A stretch of DNA of 20,000 nt from NCBI GenBank assembly GCA_035559535.1, contig DATMBG010000042.1, positions 120,063 to 140,062 of the forward strand. The letters are read 5' to 3'. The stretch comes from Candidatus Limnocylindrales bacterium. Its GTDB lineage: Bacteria; Moduliflexota; Moduliflexia; Moduliflexales; JAUQPW01. Below the pieces are notes generated by a model. That model saw nothing but the letters and a program-made list of their open reading frames with translations, made no database searches and had not been told where the DNA came from. Positions 8,696 through 20,000 of this stretch are shown piece by piece; position 1 is the stretch's first letter; every line of letters starts with the position of its first letter. Made by a program: the position numbers and the translations under genes.

Positions 8696-11509
8696 ATGGA
8701 TTATAAAAACACTTTAAATTTACCTAAAACCGATTTTCCCATGAAAGCCAATCTCCCGAAGCGGGAGCCTGAGATCCTTAAAGGTTGGGAAGAACAAAAA
8801 CTTTACCAGCAAATCCGGCAGAAGTTTGCCGATAAAACCAAATATATTTTACATGATGGGCCCCCTTACGCCAACGGACATATTCATATTGGGACTGCCC
8901 TTAACAAGATCTTAAAGGATTTTGTGGTTAAATCTCACTCCATGATGGGCTATAATGCTGTGTACGTTCCGGGATGGGATTGCCACGGATTACCTATCGA
9001 ACATCAAGTTGAGAAGACCCTGGGTGATAAGAAAAGCCAGATGGGCAAAGATGAAATACGTAAACTTTGTCGGCAGTATGCCCGTAAATTTATCGATATC
9101 CAACGAAATGAGTTTAAGCGCCTGGGAGTTCTGGGTGACTGGGAGCATCCCTATACGACCATGGATTACAGGTACGAGGCCGATACCATCCGGGAACTTG
9201 CTAAGTTTGTAGAAAAAGGGAGTGTTTACAAGGGCTTGAAGCCGGTTTACTGGTGTATCCATTGTGAAACTGCACTTGCTGAGGCCGAAGTGGAGTATTA
9301 CGATCATGAGTCTCCTTCGGTTTATGTAAAATTTCCATTGGTATCGGACCCGGAACGTATCCTTCCGGTCCTAAAAGATAAAAAGACCTACATCCTTATC
9401 TGGACGACGACGCCCTGGACTTTACCGGCTAACCTGGCCATTGCGTTTCATCCGGAGTACACTTACACGGCCGTGCAGGTAAACGGAGAGGTTTATATTG
9501 TAGTCAAAGAATTGTTGGAAGAAACGCTGAAGAAGGCCGGAATCAAGGATTTCACGGTTCTTGGAACTTTCCCCGGGAAAGTAGTGGAAGGATTGGTTGC
9601 TAAACATCCCTTTATAGATCGAGAATCCAAATTAATCCTGGCCGATTATGTGACTCTGGATCAAGGAACCGGTTGTGTTCATACGGCCCCGGGTCATGGG
9701 CAAGAAGATTACGAAAGCGGCGTAAAATATGGATTAGAGATTTATACGCCGGTCGATAGTCAGGGACGGTTTACCTCGGATGTTCCGTTCTTTGCCGGGA
9801 TGAATGTTTTTAAAGCCAATTCGGCCATTATTCAGAAAATGCGGGAAAATGGATCTTTACTGGCCGAGGAGAAACTGACGCATTCGTATCCCCATTGCTG
9901 GCGGTGTAAAAACCCGGTAATCTTCCGTTCTACTCCCCAGTGGTTTATTTCCATGGAAGTAGACAATTTACGCCAGAAATGCCTTGTGTGGATCCAGAAG
10001 GTAACCTGGATTCCTTCTTGGGGAGAGGAAAGGATTTCCAACATGATTGCCCATCGGCCTGACTGGTGTATTTCCCGGCAGCGGGCCTGGGGAGTTCCTA
10101 TTGTAGCCTTCTATTGTAAAGCCTGTAATTATCTACTTCTGGACAAAAAGATCATAGACTTTGTTGCAGACAAGGTAGCTATCCATGGAGCGGATATTTA
10201 CTTTACGGCTTCCGAGGAAGATCTTCTCCCCGAGGGAACATCCTGTCCTCGCTGTGGGGGGAAGGAATTTGTTAAAGAAACCGATATTCTGGACGTATGG
10301 TTTGATTCCGGGGTCAGTCAGGCAGCCGTATTGGCCGTTCGAGAGGATTTGGCCTGGCCGGCGGATATGTATCTGGAGGGGAGCGATCAGCACCGGGGAT
10401 GGTTTCATAGTTCCCTGCTGGCGGCCGTAGGAACCCGGGGAGCCGCTCCTTACAAATCGGTCCTGACCCATGGTTTTGTGGTGGACGGTCAGGGAAGAAA
10501 GATGTCCAAATCCCTGGGTAACACCATTGCCCCACAGGATGTTATCAACAAGTACGGCGCAGAGATTCTCCGTTTATGGGTATCTGCCGAGGATTATCGG
10601 GATGATATTCGCATTTCCGATGAAATCTTGAAGCGACTGGCAGACGCTTATTTCCGGATTCGGAATACCTGTCGGTACCTGCTGGGAAATCTCTACGATT
10701 TTAATCCGAACCGGGATATGATCCCCTATGCCCAACTGGAAGAGTTAGATAAGTGGGCACTCCACAGGCTCCAAAAGTTGATCGAGCGGGTTCGAAAAGC
10801 CTTTGAAAAATTCGAGTTTCATATTTTCTTCCATGCCTTTCATAATTTCTGTGCAGTGGATATGAGTGCCCTTTATCTGGATATCTTGAAAGATCGACTT
10901 TATACCTCCAAGGCCAACTCCCCCCAACGTCGGGCGGCTCAAACGGTCCTGTGGGAAGTTTTAACGGCCATGGTTAAATTGATGGCTCCCATCCTTTCCT
11001 TTACGGCTGAAGAGGTCTGGCAGCATCTTATCAAGATCGACCCCGAACTCGGTCGAAGAGAAGGAGGAAGTGTCCATCTACAAACCCTCCCGGAGGTTAA
11101 TCCTACCTATGTGAACGAACAACTGGCCACCAATTGGGATAAACTCCTGGAGATCCGGGGTGAAATCTCTAAGGCCCTGGAACAGGCCAGAAAAGAAAAA
11201 TGGATTGGCCACTCCTTGGATGCCGCCGTGCACCTATACGTCTCCGAGGAACTTTATCGGTTCCTTCAAGCTTATGAAAAGCAACTGAGTACCCTCTCGA
11301 TCGTTTCGGCAACCGTACTTTATGAGCCCACGGTTCAACCCCCAGGGGATGTTTTTACCAGTGAATATGTTAAAGGGCTCCGGGTCAAAATCACAAAAGC
11401 TGAAGGGGAGAAGTGTGAAAGATGCTGGCAGTACAGTCCCTATGTAGGAAAGAACCCGCAACATCCCACCCTTTGTGAGCGGTGCTCGGCGGTTGTATCG
11501 GATTTATAA
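8696..11509 (+). CDS. ileS: Isoleucine--tRNA ligase (type 1)
   Basis: [56 protein letters not shown]-terminal CERCW...CERC zinc finger; directly upstream of lspA. Confidence 0.99.
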
Positions 11510-11569: not shown

Positions 11570-12040
11570 ATGCCCAGATATTTGGCTGCCCTGCTTATCA
11601 TAGCCCTGGTTGTGGGGCTGGATATTATAACGAAGTTTCTTATTGTCCAAAACCTGGTTTTGTACCGGTCTAACATCTCTGTTATTCCAAACTTTCTGGA
11701 TATTGTGTACTATAAAAATACCGGGGCAGCCTTTGGGATTTTAGCCGGTTTTTCTTTTAGCCATTACTTCTTTCTGGCTATTTCGTTTATAGCTCTTGTG
11801 ATGCTCTTCGTGGCGTTCAAATACGCTTCCAAAGAAGGAAAACTGGTTCAGATTGCCCTACCTCTCCTCATAGGCGGAACCTTGGGAAATTTAATCGACC
11901 GCATACGGTTGGGGGCCGTGATCGATTTTATCCTGGTTCACTGGTATGATAAATTCTACTGGCCTGCCTTTAATGTTGCCGATTCGGCCATCACCGTGGG
12001 GGTTGTTCTACTTATTTTAGAAATGCTCAGAAAAAAATAA
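11570..12040 (+). CDS. lspA: Lipoprotein signal peptidase (SPase II)
   Basis: LDIITK, NTGAAFG, GGTLGNLIDR, VIDF, WPAFNVADSAI. Confidence 0.98.
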   Translation: MPRYLAALLIIALVVGLDIITKFLIVQNLVLYRSNISVIPNFLDIVYYKNTGAAFGILAGFSFSHYFFLAISFIALVMLFVAFKYASKEGKLVQIALPLLIGGTLGNLIDRIRLGAVIDFILVHWYDKFYWPAFNVADSAITVGVVLLILEMLRKK

Positions 12041-12054
12041 AAGAAGGAGTCTTT

Positions 12055-12528
12055 ATGGCAGAAGTAACTTATGTTTCCCATGTGAAGATTGAACGTAAGG
12101 TAGGTCCCTTACGGTTAGCCTATTTACCTGCTGAATCGGAGCCTGTACGCTTCGGGGTACACGGCGCAGTGGCCAGACATTATGGTATCAGCCCCGACGT
12201 TTCAGAACCCCATGCCACCACCCTGGATTATATTGTTGCCGCAACGGGTGGATGACTAACCGGTACCTTTGGAGGTGCGCTGGAAGCGCGCAAGATTGAG
12301 GCAAGTAATGGACGTTTAACAGCCGAAGTCAGGGGTGAAATCGAAACCGAGAATAAAGTACTGGTGATCAAGCGTATTCATGTGATTTATTACCTTAAGG
12401 CACCGGCCAGTGCCCGGGAGACCATCCAGCGGGTGCATGATTTTCATAAGGATTATTGTCCGGTTTACCGATCCCTGTACAAAGCCATTACCATCACGAC
12501 CGAATATCGATTAGAAGAGCTGGTTTAA
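12055..12528 (+). CDS. OsmC/Ohr-like protein with in-frame TGA, probable selenoprotein (157 aa, U67)
   Basis: AAGGAG SD. The frame continues past TGA 12253-12255: YIVAATGG-U-LTGTFGGALEARKI...IKRIHVIY...DYCPVYRSL, ending at TAA 12526-12528. Confidence 0.8.
12267..12294 (+). promoter_or_regulatory. Candidate bacterial SECIS hairpin
   Basis: GTGCGC-TGGAA-GCGCGC (12275-12291), apical loop 25 nt after the UGA with G at loop position 2. A competing hairpin GTACCT-TTGG-AGGTGC (12263-12278) is also possible. Confidence 0.5.
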
Positions 12529-12586
12529 ACTTTTTACCCCTTAGGTTAAACTCAAAGGGTTAAGGTTTCCCTACCAAAATGGAACT

Positions 12587-12614
12587 GTAGGGGTGCACGG
12601 CCGTGCGCCCCTAC
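12587..12614. repeat. GTAG-family REP palindrome, type B
   Basis: GTAGGGGTGCACGGCCGTGCGCCCCTAC, extended by ACT/AGT flanks. Confidence 0.9.
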
Positions 12615-12618
12615 AGTC

Positions 12619-12717
12619 CTTGGCCACAAGGACGTGAGGACCACCATGATTTACACCCACGTCCTCCAGAAAGGCGCCATGGCCATTCGCAGCCCATTGG
12701 ATTCACCTCCTCGATGA
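12619..12717 (+). pseudogene. intI: Integron integrase C-terminal fragment (inverted relative to the rest of intI)
   Basis: Translates as [32 protein letters not shown], the typical IntI C-terminus with the catalytic His and Tyr. Confidence 0.9.
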
Positions 12718-12863: not shown

Positions 12864-13148
12864 ATGCACGGACTCCTTCTTCCTTTGGGTCGAGATACCC
12901 AGCTTTCAAAGACTCACTTCGTCTGACTTACTCGGATCTTTGAAGTGCGTGCCCACTCTTGCGACTTCGTTTAGCTTAATCAATAGTTTTAGTGGCACCC
13001 TGCCGATGTGCCGCTCTCTTTGCTAGCTCTTCTCCCTCGATGCCAGTTATAAAGCTCAGCGTCATTGGGCTACACGAGTGTATGAACTTCGGGCCAGCTC
13101 CGCCTTCCTTGCTAATCGTTTTATAGGTTCCTTGGAATTTAACATATA

Positions 13149-13176
13149 GTACGGGCGCACGGCCGTGCGCCCGTAC
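13149..13176. repeat. REP type B variant at the intI break point
   Basis: Perfect palindrome GTACGGGCGCACGGCCGTGCGCCCGTAC, abutting the codons for GYDIRTV. Confidence 0.9.
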
Positions 13177-14062
13177 ACGGTGCGGATGTCGTAGCCATTT
13201 GTAAGCAAGTGGGTGGCAAAGGAGTGGCGGAAGGTACGGGGGCTGACAGGCTTGGTGATGTGGGCATCGCGGGCCGCCTGGCGGATTGCCCTTTGCAGGC
13301 CGCTTTTATCCAGATGGTGGCGGCGTACGATACCCGTAGGAGGGTCTACATGATAGTAAGTCAAACGTCCTCGTTTGATGGTAGTTGGAGGGGAAGACAT
13401 ATTGCCATCTCCATTCCCGGTTGGCATGAGGGTACTTGCGCTCCAGGGCATAGGGTAGGTAGACGGCGCCATAGCCTTTAGCCAGATCCTCCTCGTGCAG
13501 GCGCTTCACGCGCTGCAGGTGTTCCTGGAGGGGGGGATGAGGCTGTCAGGTAACAGCGTCACCCGGTCCTGGTCACCTTTGCCGTCCCGAACGACGATGG
13601 CTCGTTGGGCAAAGTCAATGTCCTTCACCCGCAGTCTTAGGCATTCCATCAGGCGCAGGCCGGAGTCGTAGAGGAGTTAGGCCATCAGAAGGCGGGTGCC
13701 GGACAGGTGGTTGAGGACCCGGCGCACCTCCTCTTGGGTCAGGATAGTGGGCAACCGTTTCGGTTTTTTAGCGTGCAGGGCGTAAATTACGCCCAGGTCC
13801 TTTTTCAGCACCTCGCGGTAAAGGAACAGGAGGGCGCTGAGGGCTTGATTTTGTGTGGATGCGGCGACGTTTTCCTTCACCGCCAGATGGGTAAGGAAGG
13901 CTTCGACTTCGGTGCTACCCATTTCATTGGGGTGACGTTTGTTATAGAACAGAATATAGCGTCGGATCCAGTCCACGTAGGCGTTTTCGGTGCGGATGGA
14001 GTAGTGTTTGAGTCGCAGGGCATCACGCACCTGATGAGGAACTTTTTGGGTTTTGGTTCCAT
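13177..14062 (-). pseudogene. intI: Integron integrase pseudogene (N-terminal and central part)
   Basis: [58 protein letters not shown], IntI-specific [34 protein letters not shown]. Frameshifts near 14035, 13533 and 13350-13385; TAA at 13677-13679. Confidence 0.95.
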
Positions 14063-15035: not shown

Positions 15036-15529
15036 ATGACGCGACGGAAAACGGGTAAGAAGAGTCCGGCCAGCAGCACCGCAGCCCCTTCGGCTTCGAG
15101 GCTCAGCTCTGGGCGGCGGTGAACGCCCTGCGGGGCTCCATGGACGCCGCCGAGTCCAAGCATGTCGTGTTCGGTCTGCTCTTGCTCACGTACATCTCAG
15201 ACGCCTTCGAAGCCCACCACGCTAAGCTTGAAGTCGAGCGCAACGAGGGCGCCGACCCCGAGGACCCTGACGAGTGCCGGGCCGAAAACATCTTCTGGGT
15301 TTCGTTTGAGGCGTGCTGGTTGCACCTTCAGAAGAATACCCGCCACCCCACCATCGGCCAGCTCGTCAACCACCCCACGGCGAGAGCCGGGGGCTCCCGA
15401 CGCCGGGAAGCACTGGTGGTCATCGAGCAAGACAATCCCTCCCTCAAGGGAGGGCTTTCCAAGGACGACGCCAGGTCTACGCTGGACACGACATCACGTG
15501 GCCAGCGGTGGGTCTTTCCGCTGACGTAG
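15036..15529 (+). pseudogene. hsdM: Type I restriction-modification M subunit, N-terminal remnant
   Basis: [39 protein letters not shown]...[17 protein letters not shown]...[10 protein letters not shown]. Frameshift near 15090; truncated before the MTase domain. Confidence 0.85.
15365..15410 (+). mobile_element. IS200/IS605-end-like mini-insertion in hsdM
   Basis: GTCAACCACCCCACGGCGAGAGCCGGGGGCT hairpin plus a TCCCG-ACGC-CGGGA hairpin; encodes residues not expected at this place in HsdM. Confidence 0.5.
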
Positions 15530-15650
15530 CGACTCACGCAGGCGAGGGAGTTGGCGAGTGAGGAGCGAGCGAGCAAGGGAAGAGAGATGTATGCGAATCA
15601 ATTCCTATCAAGAGGCAGCTTTTTGCTATGATAGACACGGAAGGTGCACG

Positions 15651-18631
<2,981 letters not shown>

Positions 18632-18635
<4 letters not shown>

Positions 18636-20000
18636 CCATCTTTCCGGGTATTCGCATCGAAGGTGGCCTGCTCGGGCCGGACACGCTGGAGCAGGTTCTT
18701 GCCGGTGATCTTCCGGGGCAGAACCCCAAAGACTTCGGTCTCGATGGCGGGCGAAGCCTTACCGACGAGATTGCGAGTGTCTTCGCTGACGCGCGCGCCG
18801 AGTGGGAGGTGTTCCAGCGGCGGCTGGAACGGCTTGCCGCTGACGATCTCGCGACTTCCGTCACCCGCGACGCCTGGATGATCCCGTTTCTGAGTCTTCT
18901 GGGCTACGAGCTCCGGTACAACCCGCGCGCCTACGAGGTGGATGGCCTCACCTTCGCCATCTCCCATCGCGCTGGAGAAATGGAGGACGCTCCGCCAGTA
19001 CACATCGTCGGCGCGCGGCAGGAGCTGGGCCGCGTCGCCCCGACGGGCCGGCCGCGGCTCGCGCCGCACTCGCTGGTGCAGGAGTTCCTCAACCGCAGCG
19101 AGCAGCTCTGGGGGATCGTCACCAACGGCCTCACCCTGCGCCTCCTGCGCGACAGCACCTACGTGCGCCGCCAGGCCTATGTCGAGTTCGACCTCGCGCA
19201 GATTCTCGAGGAGCAGCGCTTCCTCGACTTCTCCGTCCTCTTTCGCCTCCTCCACCGCTCGCGGCTACCGCGGTCAGTGGCCGACGCCCGGGACTGCCTT
19301 CTGGAGCGGTACTACCAGCGCGGCCTCGAGCAAGGCGGCCGGGTGCGGGAGCGGTTGCGCGACGGCGTCGAGGAATGCATCAAGCGCCTGGCGAACGGCT
19401 TCCTCGCGCACTCGGAGAACAGCGAGCTTCGGCAGCGTGTGGCGCTAGGAGCGAGTGGCGAATCGCGAGTGGCGAGTAGTGGACTACGGCCGCTCAGTCC
19501 GGAGGAACTCTACCAGCAACTGCTGCGCCTCGTGTACCGGCTCCTGTTTCTGTTGGTCTCCGAGGATCGTGGCCTGATCAGTGCCGAGCCCCTGTACCGC
19601 GAGCACTACGGCGTGGCGCGCCTGCGGCGGCTCCTCGACAGGCGCAGCGCCTACACCGAGCACGACGACATCTGGTGCAGCCTCAGGGTACTGTGGAAAG
19701 TACTCTGCGACGAAAATTACGCCGCGCTTTTGGGTGCGCCGCCGCTCAACGGCGAACTCTTCGAGCCTTGCCATCTCGACGCCTGCACCATCGCCAACCG
19801 CGATTTCCTCGAGGCGTTCTGGCATCTCGCGTATTACCGTGAGTCGCCTTCCGCGCCGCCGCGTCGGGTCAACTATGCTGCCCTCGACGTCGAGGAACTC
19901 GGCTCGGTGTACGAGAGCCTCCTGGACTACCACCCGGTGGTTGAGGCGAGTGGCGAGTGGCGAGTGGCGAGTGAAGGGCCAGTAGGGGCGCACGGCGGTG
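18632..20000 (+). CDS. Type IIG/Eco57I-like N6-adenine DNA methyltransferase (DrmMI-like), 3'-partial; absent from the ORF track
   Basis: ATGA overlap with the helicase. MTIFPGIRIEGGLLGPD, GIVTNGLTLRLLRDS, LVYRLLFLLVSEDRGL, LNGELFE, RVNYAALDVEELGSVYESLL. The start, middle and end segments share one frame. Confidence 0.85.
19945..19972 (+). repeat. Heptamer tandem repeat (GGCGAGT)x4 inside the CDS
   Basis: Four perfect units; degenerate arrays also at 17904-17938 (reverse), 18063-18083, 18420-18447 and 19450-19477. Confidence 0.9.
19982..20000. repeat. Type B REP, cut by the window edge, in frame in the MTase
   Basis: GTAGGGGCGCACGGCGGTG (VGAHGG). Confidence 0.75.

What the first reader, a model, noticed from the sequence alone, without database searches (positions are those of the whole stretch)
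12055..12528. Hidden selenoprotein: OsmC-like gene appended to ileS-lspA
Seen: the ORF track stops at 66 aa, but the frame stays open for 90 more codons after the TGA with no other lesion. The TGA falls where OsmC/Ohr proteins have their first catalytic Cys (AATGG-U-L), and the second Cys (CPV, residue 135) is present. A hairpin with a UGGAA loop lies 25 nt downstream. Known: OsmC-like bacterial selenoproteins exist and need SelA/B/C/D. Inference: a Sec-dependent redox or sulfur-handling protein probably co-transcribed with ileS-lspA (14-nt gap), which is an unusual context.
Basis: partly seen in the sequence, partly recalled or inferred. Interest (0 to 1): 0.7.

Follow-up and report, generated by a model that had tools for sequence, protein, structure and literature searches.

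The report
Hidden selenocysteine OsmC-like redox gene
A small gene that looks cut in two by a stop codon is really one 157-residue OsmC-type redox protein in which that codon is read as selenocysteine, and the same hidden form occurs, usually mis-annotated, in many soil and sediment bacteria.

Summary
ORF 12055-12528 (+) has a single in-frame TGA at 12253-12255 (codon 67), and the Pfam OsmC match runs across it.

Evidence that the TGA encodes selenocysteine:
- **Sec machinery:** the genome has selA, selB, a Sec-type selD and tRNA-Sec (anticodon tca).
- **Conserved TGA:** the TGA sits at the same column in all 80 best homologous loci from species-representative genomes. These are mostly Acidobacteriota, with six or more other phyla. 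It is also kept in a 96% and a 41% identical homologue. More distant homologues have Cys there.
- **selB co-occurrence:** 45 of 50 genomes holding the TGA form have selB above the curated cut-off.
- **SECIS-like hairpin:** GYGCGC-UGGAR-GCGCGY lies at 12275-12291. It is paired in 99.2% of cells across 82 distinct sequences. Its synonymous sites are almost frozen, and there is one compensatory G-C to A-U change.

The fold is OsmC/Ohr. U67 aligns with the first catalytic Cys and C135 with the second Cys.

The protein is not the curated OsmC-like selenoprotein family (NF041052, motif UxxT): it scores 22.7 bits against a 95-bit cut-off. It is a separate OsmC clade, and NCBI annotates one member as 66-aa and 90-aa fragments.

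The ileS-lspA linkage is shared only with the same-genus genome. The peroxidase function is inferred.

The parts
8696..11509 (+). ileS (isoleucyl-tRNA synthetase), first gene of the same-strand run
   Evidence: Pfam tRNA-synt_1 E 6.6e-143, Anticodon_1, zf-FPG_IleRS. No in-frame TGA; 23 TGG codons.
11570..12040 (+). lspA (signal peptidase II), ends with TAA 14 nt before the OsmC-like start
   Evidence: Pfam Peptidase_A8 E 5.4e-38; coordinates.
12044..12049 (+). Shine-Dalgarno-like AAGGAG, 5 nt before the ATG
   Evidence: Read directly from the sequence. The same AAGGAGTCTTTATG is present in the same-genus genome.
12055..12528 (+). Complete OsmC-family selenoprotein gene, 157 codons plus TAA
   Evidence: Translation with TGA=U. 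Pfam OsmC residues 56-150. AF2 model pLDDT 90.9. Foldseek top hits are OsmC/Ohr structures.
12253..12255 (+). UGA codon 67, read as selenocysteine; aligns with the first catalytic Cys of OsmC
   Evidence: TGA at this column in 83 of 83 loci examined, that is the window, G001, G014 and the 80 best genome-contig loci. It aligns with the Cys of AHAGCFSMAL in 1ukk. 46 of 120 listed protein homologues have Cys here.
12275..12291 (+). SECIS-like hairpin: stem 12275-12280 / 12286-12291, loop UGGAA 12281-12285 (or a 7-bp stem with a GGA triloop)
   Evidence: RNAalifold consensus. 99.2% of cells paired in 82 distinct sequences, with one G-C to A-U compensatory change in 2 sequences. Third-position entropy is 0.00-0.59 bits at codons 74-76 and 78, against 1.21-1.94 bits at 39 other conserved degenerate codons.
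12457..12459 (+). Cys135 codon (TGT) in the CPV motif; the second (resolving-type) Cys
   Evidence: Invariant in alignment A1. Aligns with the Cys of EGCPVSRAL in T. thermophilus OsmC 1ukk.

Best explanation
12055-12528 is one intact gene for a 157-residue OsmC-superfamily protein. Codon 67 (UGA) is decoded as selenocysteine by SelB and tRNA-Sec. Decoding is directed by a short GC-rich hairpin (GYGCGC-UGGAR-GCGCGY) that starts 19 nt downstream of the UGA, inside the codons for G-A-L-E-A-R. Sec67 sits in the middle of the first long helix at the position of the OsmC/Ohr peroxidatic Cys. Cys135 (CPV) sits at the resolving-Cys position. The most likely chemistry is therefore a selenol-based hydroperoxide or other oxidant reduction via a selenenic acid, resolved to a Se-S bond with Cys135 and recycled by a cellular thiol reductant. 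Shown here: reading frame, OsmC fold, alignment of Sec and Cys to the OsmC pair, Sec machinery, wide conservation of the TGA, and RNA-level constraint on the hairpin. Inferred: actual Se incorporation, peroxidase activity, the substrate, the reductant, and co-transcription with ileS-lspA. The confidence given is for 'genuine Sec-decoded OsmC-family gene'. For the peroxidase chemistry alone I would put about 0.55.
For: Frame and family:
- One in-frame TGA only.
- The Pfam OsmC match crosses it.
- AF2 model pLDDT 90.9 with residue 67 inside helix 56-78.
- Foldseek finds 63 PDB matches at E <= 0.001. The top ones are 2onf, T. thermophilus OsmC 1ukk and E. coli OsmC 1qwi/1nye, followed by Ohr structures, with TM 0.54-0.74.
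- In the profile-vs-PDB alignment, column 67 aligns with the Cys of 'AHAGCFSMAL' and C135 with the Cys of 'EGCPVSRAL' in 1ukk.

Sec machinery in the same genome:
- selB 408.6 bits (cut-off 242).
- selA 622 bits.
- selD 388.6 bits, itself with 1 in-frame TGA.
- tRNA-Sec 74.5 bits, anticodon tca.

Conservation of the TGA:
- Kept in G001 (96% identity) and G014 (41% identity).
- Present in 80 of 80 best loci from the genome-contig scan. By record title these are 61 Acidobacteriota, 5 Thermodesulfobacteriota and 4 Chloroflexota. There is one each of Binatota, Bacteroidota, Poribacteria, Deferribacterota and Bacillota, and 6 records have no phylum assigned.

Co-occurrence: selB is above cut-off in 45 of 50 genomes that hold the TGA form, against 2 of 14 control genomes.

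Hairpin:
- 99.2% of 492 cells paired, against at most 68.3% when the partner is slid. Two sequences change G-C to A-U on both sides, at the cost of an Ala to Val change.
- Synonymous sites are frozen at codons 74-76 and 78.
- Of the 120 listed protein homologues, 61 carry W at the column and 60 of those 61 have ALEAR downstream. 46 carry C, and only 3 of those 46 have ALEAR.
- W forms are 90-93% identical to loci where the codon is TGA.
- selD of the same genome has a comparable 7-bp GC-rich stem with a GGU loop starting 20 nt after its UGA.

Both halves are under purifying selection between G000 and G001: 10 synonymous vs 2 nonsynonymous codons before the TGA, and 13 vs 5 after it.

TGA is not a general sense codon. 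Twelve other Pfam-supported ORFs in the window have no in-frame TGA, Trp is encoded by TGG, and one ORF stops with TGA.
Against: - No direct evidence of selenium incorporation or of expression.
- The single-sequence fold of the hairpin region is not better than shuffles (z = -0.98).
- No Rfam family matches.
- Covariation is thin. The stem is almost invariant: 1 pair has a double change, and 28 of 500 shuffles reach that count. Support rests mainly on suppressed synonymous variation.
- For the peroxidase function, similarity to characterised OsmC/Ohr is remote (13-17% identity; TIGR03562 23.3 bits against a cut-off of 85.8).
- The catalytic Arg/Glu equivalents and the dimer were not tested.
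- There is no conserved gene neighbourhood to point to a partner. The largest neighbour family occurs in 7 of 83 loci.
- selB was not found above cut-off in 5 of 50 holder genomes, all of them MAGs.
Confidence: 0.9

Rival explanations
1. The TGA is a true stop. The locus is a pseudogene, or two separate small genes (66 aa and 90 aa), as public annotation has it.
For: Table-11 gene calling stops at 66 aa. NCBI records of a KSB1 homologue list a 66-aa 'hypothetical protein' and a 90-aa 'OsmC family protein'. In G001 a TTG directly after the TGA allows a 90-aa ORF call.
Against: The TGA is at the same column in 83 of 83 loci across many phyla. The window has CTA, not a start codon, after the TGA. 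Residue 67 lies in the middle of one predicted helix of a single domain. Both halves show an excess of synonymous changes. The Sec machinery co-occurs.
Confidence: 0.03
2. The TGA is read through, but as a standard amino acid. This would be either Trp, as in a TGA=Trp code, or Cys/Trp by near-cognate suppression, not selenocysteine.
For: 61 of 120 listed public protein calls carry W at this column. This shows only that some gene callers chose a TGA=Trp table.
Against: Twelve other ORFs in the window have no in-frame TGA, use TGG for Trp, and one ends in TGA. The G014 homologue uses TGA as its real stop as well. A conserved hairpin with frozen synonymous sites is unexplained by plain suppression. 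A Trp at a catalytic Cys column, where homologues have Cys, is chemically implausible. selB is present in 45 of 50 holder genomes.
Confidence: 0.04
3. It is a genuine selenoprotein, but not a hydroperoxide reductase. It would be an OsmC-fold redox protein with another substrate, for example disulfide or persulfide exchange, or a YhfA-like role that is still unknown.
For: It falls below every curated peroxiredoxin subfamily cut-off (TIGR03562 23.3 vs 85.8; no Ohr hit). The nearest solved sequences are 'hypothetical proteins' 2opl and 2onf. The family has a conserved ~55-residue N-terminal part with invariant H36, Y43 and D58, for which no OsmC equivalent was established here. The structure of E. 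coli YhfA (1ml8) is also among the matches.
Against: The Sec/Cys pair sits exactly at the OsmC peroxidatic and resolving columns. The best structural matches are OsmC and Ohr enzymes. The most frequent neighbour, in only 7 of 83 loci, is an AhpC/TSA-DsbD_N protein.
Confidence: 0.35

Closest known systems
OsmC-like selenoprotein of the literature (Sargasso Sea 2005; COG1765/YhfA type, motif UxxT; NCBIfam NF041052 OsmC_like_Se)
   Same: PF02566 fold, with Sec in place of the first conserved Cys on the first long helix and a second Cys kept. Both types can occur in one genome: G043 holds L028 (this clade) and L126 (NF041052, 164 bits).
   Different: The window protein scores 22.7 bits against a cut-off of 95. 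BLASTP against a true member is not significant (E = 6). The motif is U-L-T-G-T, not U-x-x-T; the true member reads AF-U-LMT. The papers were seen as table and legend passages only.
OsmC peroxiredoxins (E. coli 1qwi/1nye, T. thermophilus 1ukk) and Ohr (for example 1usp, 1zb9, 6eb4)
   Same: Same fold (Foldseek E 1e-8 to 4e-6, TM 0.54-0.74). The two redox residues are at the same columns.
   Different: Sec instead of the first Cys. Identity is 10-20%. The protein is below the TIGR03562 cut-off and has no TIGR03561 hit. Dimer and Arg/Glu equivalents were not tested. That Cys59/Cys125 of E. coli OsmC are the peroxidatic and resolving residues is recalled, not taken from a call.
Cys-containing orthologues ('OsmC family protein', for example the Tenacibaculum ovolyticum and Flavobacterium sp. 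entries P0007 and P0022)
   Same: 52-58% identity over the full length, with the same N-terminal part and the same invariant residues.
   Different: Cys at column 67. The stretch that encodes the hairpin is free to vary (ALRVR, SLAVR, MLAAR and others; only 3 of 46 keep ALEAR).
PDB 2opl and 2onf (structural-genomics 'hypothetical proteins' of the OsmC superfamily)
   Same: Nearest solved sequences (E 2.5e-4 and 5.3e-4). 2onf is the top Foldseek match.
   Different: Both have Cys at the column and no known function. 2opl lacks the second Cys in the alignment shown.

Membership tests
OsmC/Ohr superfamily (Pfam PF02566) | Sequence match above the Pfam gathering score | tested here: met
   55.4 bits against 27.5, residues 56-150.
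OsmC/Ohr superfamily (Pfam PF02566) | OsmC fold | tested here: met
   AF2 pLDDT 90.9, pTM 0.82. Foldseek top hits are OsmC, Ohr and OsmC-like structures, probability 1.00, TM 0.54-0.74.
OsmC/Ohr superfamily (Pfam PF02566) | Two conserved redox Cys positions, one on the first long helix and one in a C-P/C-x motif on the second | tested here: met
   U67 and C135 align with the two Cys of T. thermophilus OsmC 1ukk. C135 is invariant in A1.
OsmC/Ohr superfamily (Pfam PF02566) | Intertwined homodimer; catalytic Arg and Glu near the peroxidatic residue (features recalled from the OsmC/Ohr literature) | not tested
   No dimer was predicted and the model coordinates were not readable in the script box. 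Invariant D58, 9 residues before U67, and R79/R107 are candidates only.
OsmC peroxiredoxin subfamily (TIGR03562) / Ohr subfamily (TIGR03561) | Score above the curated NCBIfam cut-off | tested here: not met
   TIGR03562 23.3 bits against 85.8; no TIGR03561 hit at E <= 0.01.
Curated OsmC-like selenoprotein (NF041052; literature motif UxxT) | Score above the curated cut-off (95 bits) | tested here: not met
   22.7 bits. A true member from G043 scores 164.4 bits and shows no significant BLASTP similarity to the window protein.
Curated OsmC-like selenoprotein (NF041052; literature motif UxxT) | U-x-x-T redox motif | tested here: not met
   The window has U-L-T-G-T, with invariant G at +3. The true member has U-L-M-T. 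The motif is as listed in the tables of PMC1088965, PMC2398784, PMC9312934 and PMC13188914.
Bacterial selenoprotein (SelB/SECIS-dependent UGA recoding) | In-frame UGA conserved among homologues and aligned with Cys in others | tested here: met
   83 of 83 loci have TGA. 46 of 120 listed homologues have Cys.
Bacterial selenoprotein (SelB/SECIS-dependent UGA recoding) | Stem-loop shortly downstream of the UGA with G in the apical loop (the 16-37 nt spacing rule of bSECISearch is recalled, not from a call) | tested here: met
   6-7 bp GC stem with loop UGGAR starting 25 nt after the UGA. 99.2% of cells paired, frozen synonymous sites, one compensatory change. The single-sequence z-score is not significant.
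Bacterial selenoprotein (SelB/SECIS-dependent UGA recoding) | selA, selB, selD and tRNA-Sec in the genome | tested here: met
   All are above the curated cut-offs.
Bacterial selenoprotein (SelB/SECIS-dependent UGA recoding) | Selenium actually incorporated at the UGA | not testable with these tools
   Needs 75Se labelling or mass spectrometry.

The most novel reading that the evidence does not exclude
This may be an uncurated selenoprotein family in its own right. It is an OsmC-superfamily clade, unrelated at BLASTP level to the known 'OsmC-like (UxxT)' selenoprotein. Among its nearest relatives the Sec form is the majority state: 61 W(=TGA) against 46 Cys among 120 listed clusters, and 80 of 80 best genomic loci. 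It is centred on soil Acidobacteriota but spread over many phyla. A minimal SECIS is written into the G-A-L-E-A-R codons and locks that peptide in Sec forms only. Sec and Cys states appear to have switched repeatedly: 8 changes on a weakly supported FastTree tree, where well-supported branches force only 1. Gene callers systematically split it or call the residue Trp.
Probability: 0.5. Interest if true: 0.5.

Novelty: new member of a known kind. Interest (0 to 1): 0.4.

Why it matters
Three points matter.

- **Annotation.** This gene and its many relatives are recorded as fragments or with Trp at the catalytic site. NCBI records of one KSB1 homologue list a 66-aa 'hypothetical protein' plus a 90-aa 'OsmC family protein'. 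No NCBIfam model reaches its cut-off for this clade, so selenoproteome counts that rely on those models would probably miss it, above all in Acidobacteriota.
- **A clean natural experiment.** In Sec forms the hairpin freezes both the codons and the peptide ALEAR. In Cys forms the same stretch drifts. This makes it a compact system for studying SelB recognition of a very short SECIS.
- **Biochemistry.** A Sec-for-Cys OsmC-fold enzyme with natural Cys orthologues at 52-58% identity would allow a direct comparison of selenol and thiol catalysis in this fold.

It does not change what is known in kind. OsmC-like selenoproteins have been listed since 2005.

Tried and rejected
- **Rfam scan** of 12150-12650 at E <= 10: only four chance-level matches and no SECIS family.
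- **Single-sequence folding:** not better than shuffles, so it was not used as support.
- **Conserved neighbourhood:** all-vs-all clustering of 294 flanking ORFs from 83 loci gave no family in more than 7 loci. Representatives were AhpC/TSA+DsbD_N, an ECF-type sigma factor, a nitroreductase, an FAD oxidoreductase and two with no Pfam match. No operon partner can be claimed.
- **ileS/lspA linkage:** tblastn of the window's LspA and IleS against 82 other loci hit only G001. The context is therefore specific to this genus among the loci searched.
- **Same-order relatives:** none of the 7 same-order genomes searched gave a match with this query. They are 77-97% complete, so this is 'not found', not 'absent'.
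- **RNA runs:** no RNA holder was listed.
- **Model coordinates:** not available in the script box, so the Sec67-Cys135 distance and the Arg/Glu geometry were not measured.
- **P0005** (NCBI 'OsmC family protein', 157 aa) was considered as evidence that NCBI already annotates a Sec form. This was rejected, because JGI members of the same cluster also read Cys. It is more likely a genuine Cys form that still keeps ALEAR.
- **Not run:**
  - A metagenome scan for the DNA of Cys forms. The protein-level contrast stands in for it.
  - A dimer prediction.
  - Wrong locus coordinates.
  - Wrong frame.
  - More than 50 loci in one call.
  - A report section left out.

Full report
**Observation**

The table-11 ORF at 12055-12255 is 66 codons long and ends at TGA 12253-12255. 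Reading that codon through gives one 157-residue frame ending at TAA 12526-12528, with no other interruption. The sequence around the TGA is VAATGG-U-LTGTFGG, and residue 135 is the Cys of DYCPVYRS. lspA (11570-12040) ends 14 nt upstream, preceded by ileS (8696-11509). AAGGAG lies 5 nt before the ATG.

The hairpin is GUGCGC (12275-12280), UGGAA (12281-12285), GCGCGC (12286-12291). Its loop begins 25 nt after the UGA.

**One gene, OsmC fold**

- The Pfam OsmC match (55.4 bits, cut-off 27.5) covers residues 56-150 and so crosses the TGA.
- An AlphaFold2 model built on a 24-row alignment has mean pLDDT 90.9 and places residue 67 in the middle of helix 56-78.
- Foldseek against the PDB gives 63 matches at E <= 0.001. 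They are led by 2onf, T. thermophilus OsmC (1ukk) and E. coli OsmC (1qwi, 1nye), followed by Ohr structures (TM 0.54-0.74, 10-20% identity).
- In a profile search of PDB sequences, column 67 aligns with the Cys of AHAGCFSMAL and C135 with the Cys of EGCPVSRAL in 1ukk.
- Between the window and the same-genus genome G001, codons 1-66 differ at 10 synonymous and 2 nonsynonymous codons. Codons 68-157 differ at 13 and 5. The part after the TGA is therefore under the same kind of selection as the part before it.

**Sec machinery**

The window's own genome (G000; 5.6 Mb, 58 contigs, 95.8% complete) carries:
- selB, 408.6 bits;
- selA, 622.1 bits;
- selD, 388.6 bits, itself with one in-frame TGA;
- tRNA-Sec, 74.5 bits, anticodon tca.

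TGA is not a general sense codon here. Twelve other Pfam-supported ORFs of the window contain no in-frame TGA, use TGG for Trp, and one ends in TGA.

**The TGA is conserved far beyond this strain**

- A search of 40 relatives found the gene in G001 (96% identity, 1 TGA) and in G014 (41% identity, 1 TGA at the same column, and a second TGA as the real stop). There was also one weak partial hit.
- None of the 7 same-order genomes gave a match with this query.
All 80 carry TGA at this column: 72 by a strict motif and the other 8 by a looser one.
- By record title these 80 comprise 61 Acidobacteriota, 5 Thermodesulfobacteriota and 4 Chloroflexota. There is one each of Binatota, Bacteroidota, Poribacteria, Deferribacterota and Bacillota, and 6 records have no phylum assigned.
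- One of the 80 (L066, genome G080) is flagged as unpublished. Without it the count is 79 of 79.
- Of the first 50 of these genomes, 45 have selB above the curated cut-off and 48 have a match at E <= 1e-30. In the control genomes the figure is 2 of 14. Without G080 it is 44 of 49. The other loci were not tested for selB.

**Cys forms, and how databases show the Sec forms**

Of 982 proteins found at E <= 0.001, 120 were listed. At the column:
- 61 read W, and 60 of those 61 are followed by ALEAR;
- 46 read C, and 3 of those 46 have ALEAR;
- 3 read another residue;
- 10 did not match the motif used.

W forms are 90-93% identical to genomic loci in which the codon is TGA. The W is therefore most simply a gene caller's choice of a TGA=Trp table. 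This is an inference, because the same contigs were not read.

In one cluster, NCBI records of a KSB1 bacterium list a 66-aa 'hypothetical protein' and a 90-aa 'OsmC family protein'. Many further 66-aa members sit in the same cluster. The one full-length NCBI 'OsmC family protein' seen (P0005) shares its cluster with JGI calls that read Cys, so it is probably a true Cys form.

**The hairpin**

RNAalifold on 83 ungapped 72-nt stretches predicts only this stem. On the 6-bp version, 99.2% of 492 cells pair. When the partner is slid, 9-68% pair.

Variation is slight:
- G-C/G-U at the outer pair (42 and 38 sequences);
- C-G/U-G at the next pair (72 and 9 sequences);
- one double change, G-C to A-U, in two sequences (L071, L082), which also turns Ala into Val.

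The count of pairs with double changes (1) is reached by 28 of 500 shuffles, so covariation alone is weak. The stronger signal comes from synonymous sites. Among 44 conserved four- or six-fold degenerate codons, third-position entropy is 1.21-1.94 bits at 39 of them. It is 0.59, 0.16, 0.00 and 0.10 bits at G74, A75, L76 and A78. At R79 it is 1.14 bits, and C or T, both of which pair with G, make up 81 of 83 sequences (the residue numbers printed there are one too high).

The selD gene of the same genome has a 7-bp GC-rich stem with a GGU loop that starts 20 nt after its UGA. Against: the window's own 86-nt stretch folds no better than shuffles (z = -0.98), and Rfam has no match.

**What it most likely does**

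Sec at the peroxidatic column and Cys at the resolving column of an OsmC fold point to a selenol-based reductase of hydroperoxides or similar oxidants. This is inferred. The protein is below every curated peroxiredoxin subfamily cut-off. The nearest solved sequences are proteins of unknown function. The dimer and the Arg/Glu equivalents were not examined.

Gene neighbourhood gives no help. The largest flanking family, an AhpC/TSA-DsbD_N protein, occurs in 7 of 83 loci.

lspA/ileS adjacency occurs in 1 of 82 other loci, namely G001, where the gap is 45 nt. The link to ileS-lspA is therefore confined to this genus among the loci searched and says nothing about function. Co-transcription is plausible, since no terminator-like site lies between the genes, but it is untested.

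**Comparison with what is known**

'OsmC-like protein' has been on lists of prokaryotic selenoprotein families since the Sargasso Sea study. It is described there as COG1765/YhfA type or PF02566, with motif UxxT and 3-5 sequences per survey. The sources are PMC1088965, PMC2398784, PMC1976440, PMC9312934 and PMC13188914. Only table and legend passages were seen, and supplements were not opened.

NCBIfam NF041052 'OsmC-related (seleno)protein' fits that description. A true member found in genome G043 (164.4 bits, 1 TGA) reads AF-U-LMT. The window protein scores 22.7 bits against that model's cut-off of 95 and has G, not T, at +3. It shows no significant BLASTP similarity to the G043 member (E = 6). 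G043 also holds a member of the present clade (L028), so the two are paralogous lines.

Full-text searches for OsmC with selenoprotein, selenocysteine or SECIS returned 6, 6 and 16 papers. In the five selenoprotein papers opened, only the UxxT family is listed; the others were seen as search listings only. I therefore file it as a new member of a known kind: an OsmC-fold selenoprotein, but of a clade for which no curated model was found here.

**Evolution**

On a FastTree tree of 83 Sec and 46 Cys rows, the state needs 8 changes, against a shuffled mean of 38. Well-supported branches force only one change, and the tree is poorly resolved. After G001, the window's nearest rows come from Binatota, Bacteroidota and Acidobacteriota. 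Together with the gene not being found in same-order genomes, this suggests horizontal spread. It is not shown.

**Verdict**

This is a real, intact selenoprotein gene. Interest is moderate, mainly for annotation and as a compact SECIS model.

Noticed in passing
G000:C52:81291-81686 (-) = L106:1459-1902 (-); G000:C44:2939-3229 (+) = L113:1375-1818 (+): G000 has five OsmC-domain genes, and three of them carry one in-frame TGA. Besides the window's gene there is one with U at the first Cys column (GA-U-TSMT, 58.5 bits to NF041052, below cut-off). The other has U at the second Cys column (GR-U-PLYG) with the first Cys kept. In 30 other genomes the TGA is kept only in same-genus G001. Homologues of the first gene at 44-59% identity have no stop. 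Sec at the resolving-Cys position of an OsmC fold was not on the family lists seen.
   Followed up: partly
G000:C29:76668-77594 (+) = L010: selD itself has an in-frame TGA (CGG-U-AAKL). A 7-bp GC-rich hairpin with a GGU loop starts 13 nt after it, so this is a Sec-type SelD.
   Followed up: partly
window 12586-12617 and 13149-13176: There are two copies of a GC-rich perfect palindrome with core GGGCGCACGGCCGTGCGCCC. The genome holds 43 sites within 2 mismatches and none for the reversed control. Variants keep the palindrome by paired changes, and sites are often clustered 0.2-2 kb apart. The nature of the repeat (REP-like element or recombination site) was not determined.
   Followed up: partly
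window 12619-12717 (+), 13062-13472 (-), 13677-14030 (-): A tyrosine recombinase gene lies in pieces. The N-terminal SAM-like domain and part of the catalytic domain are on the minus strand (Pfam Phage_int_SAM_4 E 7e-33, Phage_integrase E 3.7e-9). The last 32 codons ([15 protein letters not shown]...) are on the plus strand just after the first palindrome. The layout looks like an inversion between the two palindromes. Homology between G000 and G001 downstream of the OsmC-like gene ends near 12572. G001 also has an integrase N-terminal fragment downstream.
   Followed up: partly
window 15119-19999 (+): An HsdM_N-only ORF (136 aa), a 1025-aa SNF2/helicase protein and a 456-aa open-ended ORF with no Pfam match lie beyond the integrase remnant. 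This looks like a mobile or defence-type region next to the housekeeping ileS-lspA block.
   Followed up: no
L126 (G043:C172:8389-8769, -) and L028 (same genome): One Binatia MAG carries both the curated NF041052-type OsmC-like selenoprotein (U-L-M-T) and a member of the present clade, each with its own TGA.
   Followed up: partly
P0005, P0122, P0123 (protein cluster 1): A Pyrinomonadaceae Cys form still reads ALEAR (one member reads ALGAR) right after the Cys. This is what a recent Sec-to-Cys switch with a not-yet-decayed hairpin would look like. Its DNA was not fetched.
   Followed up: no
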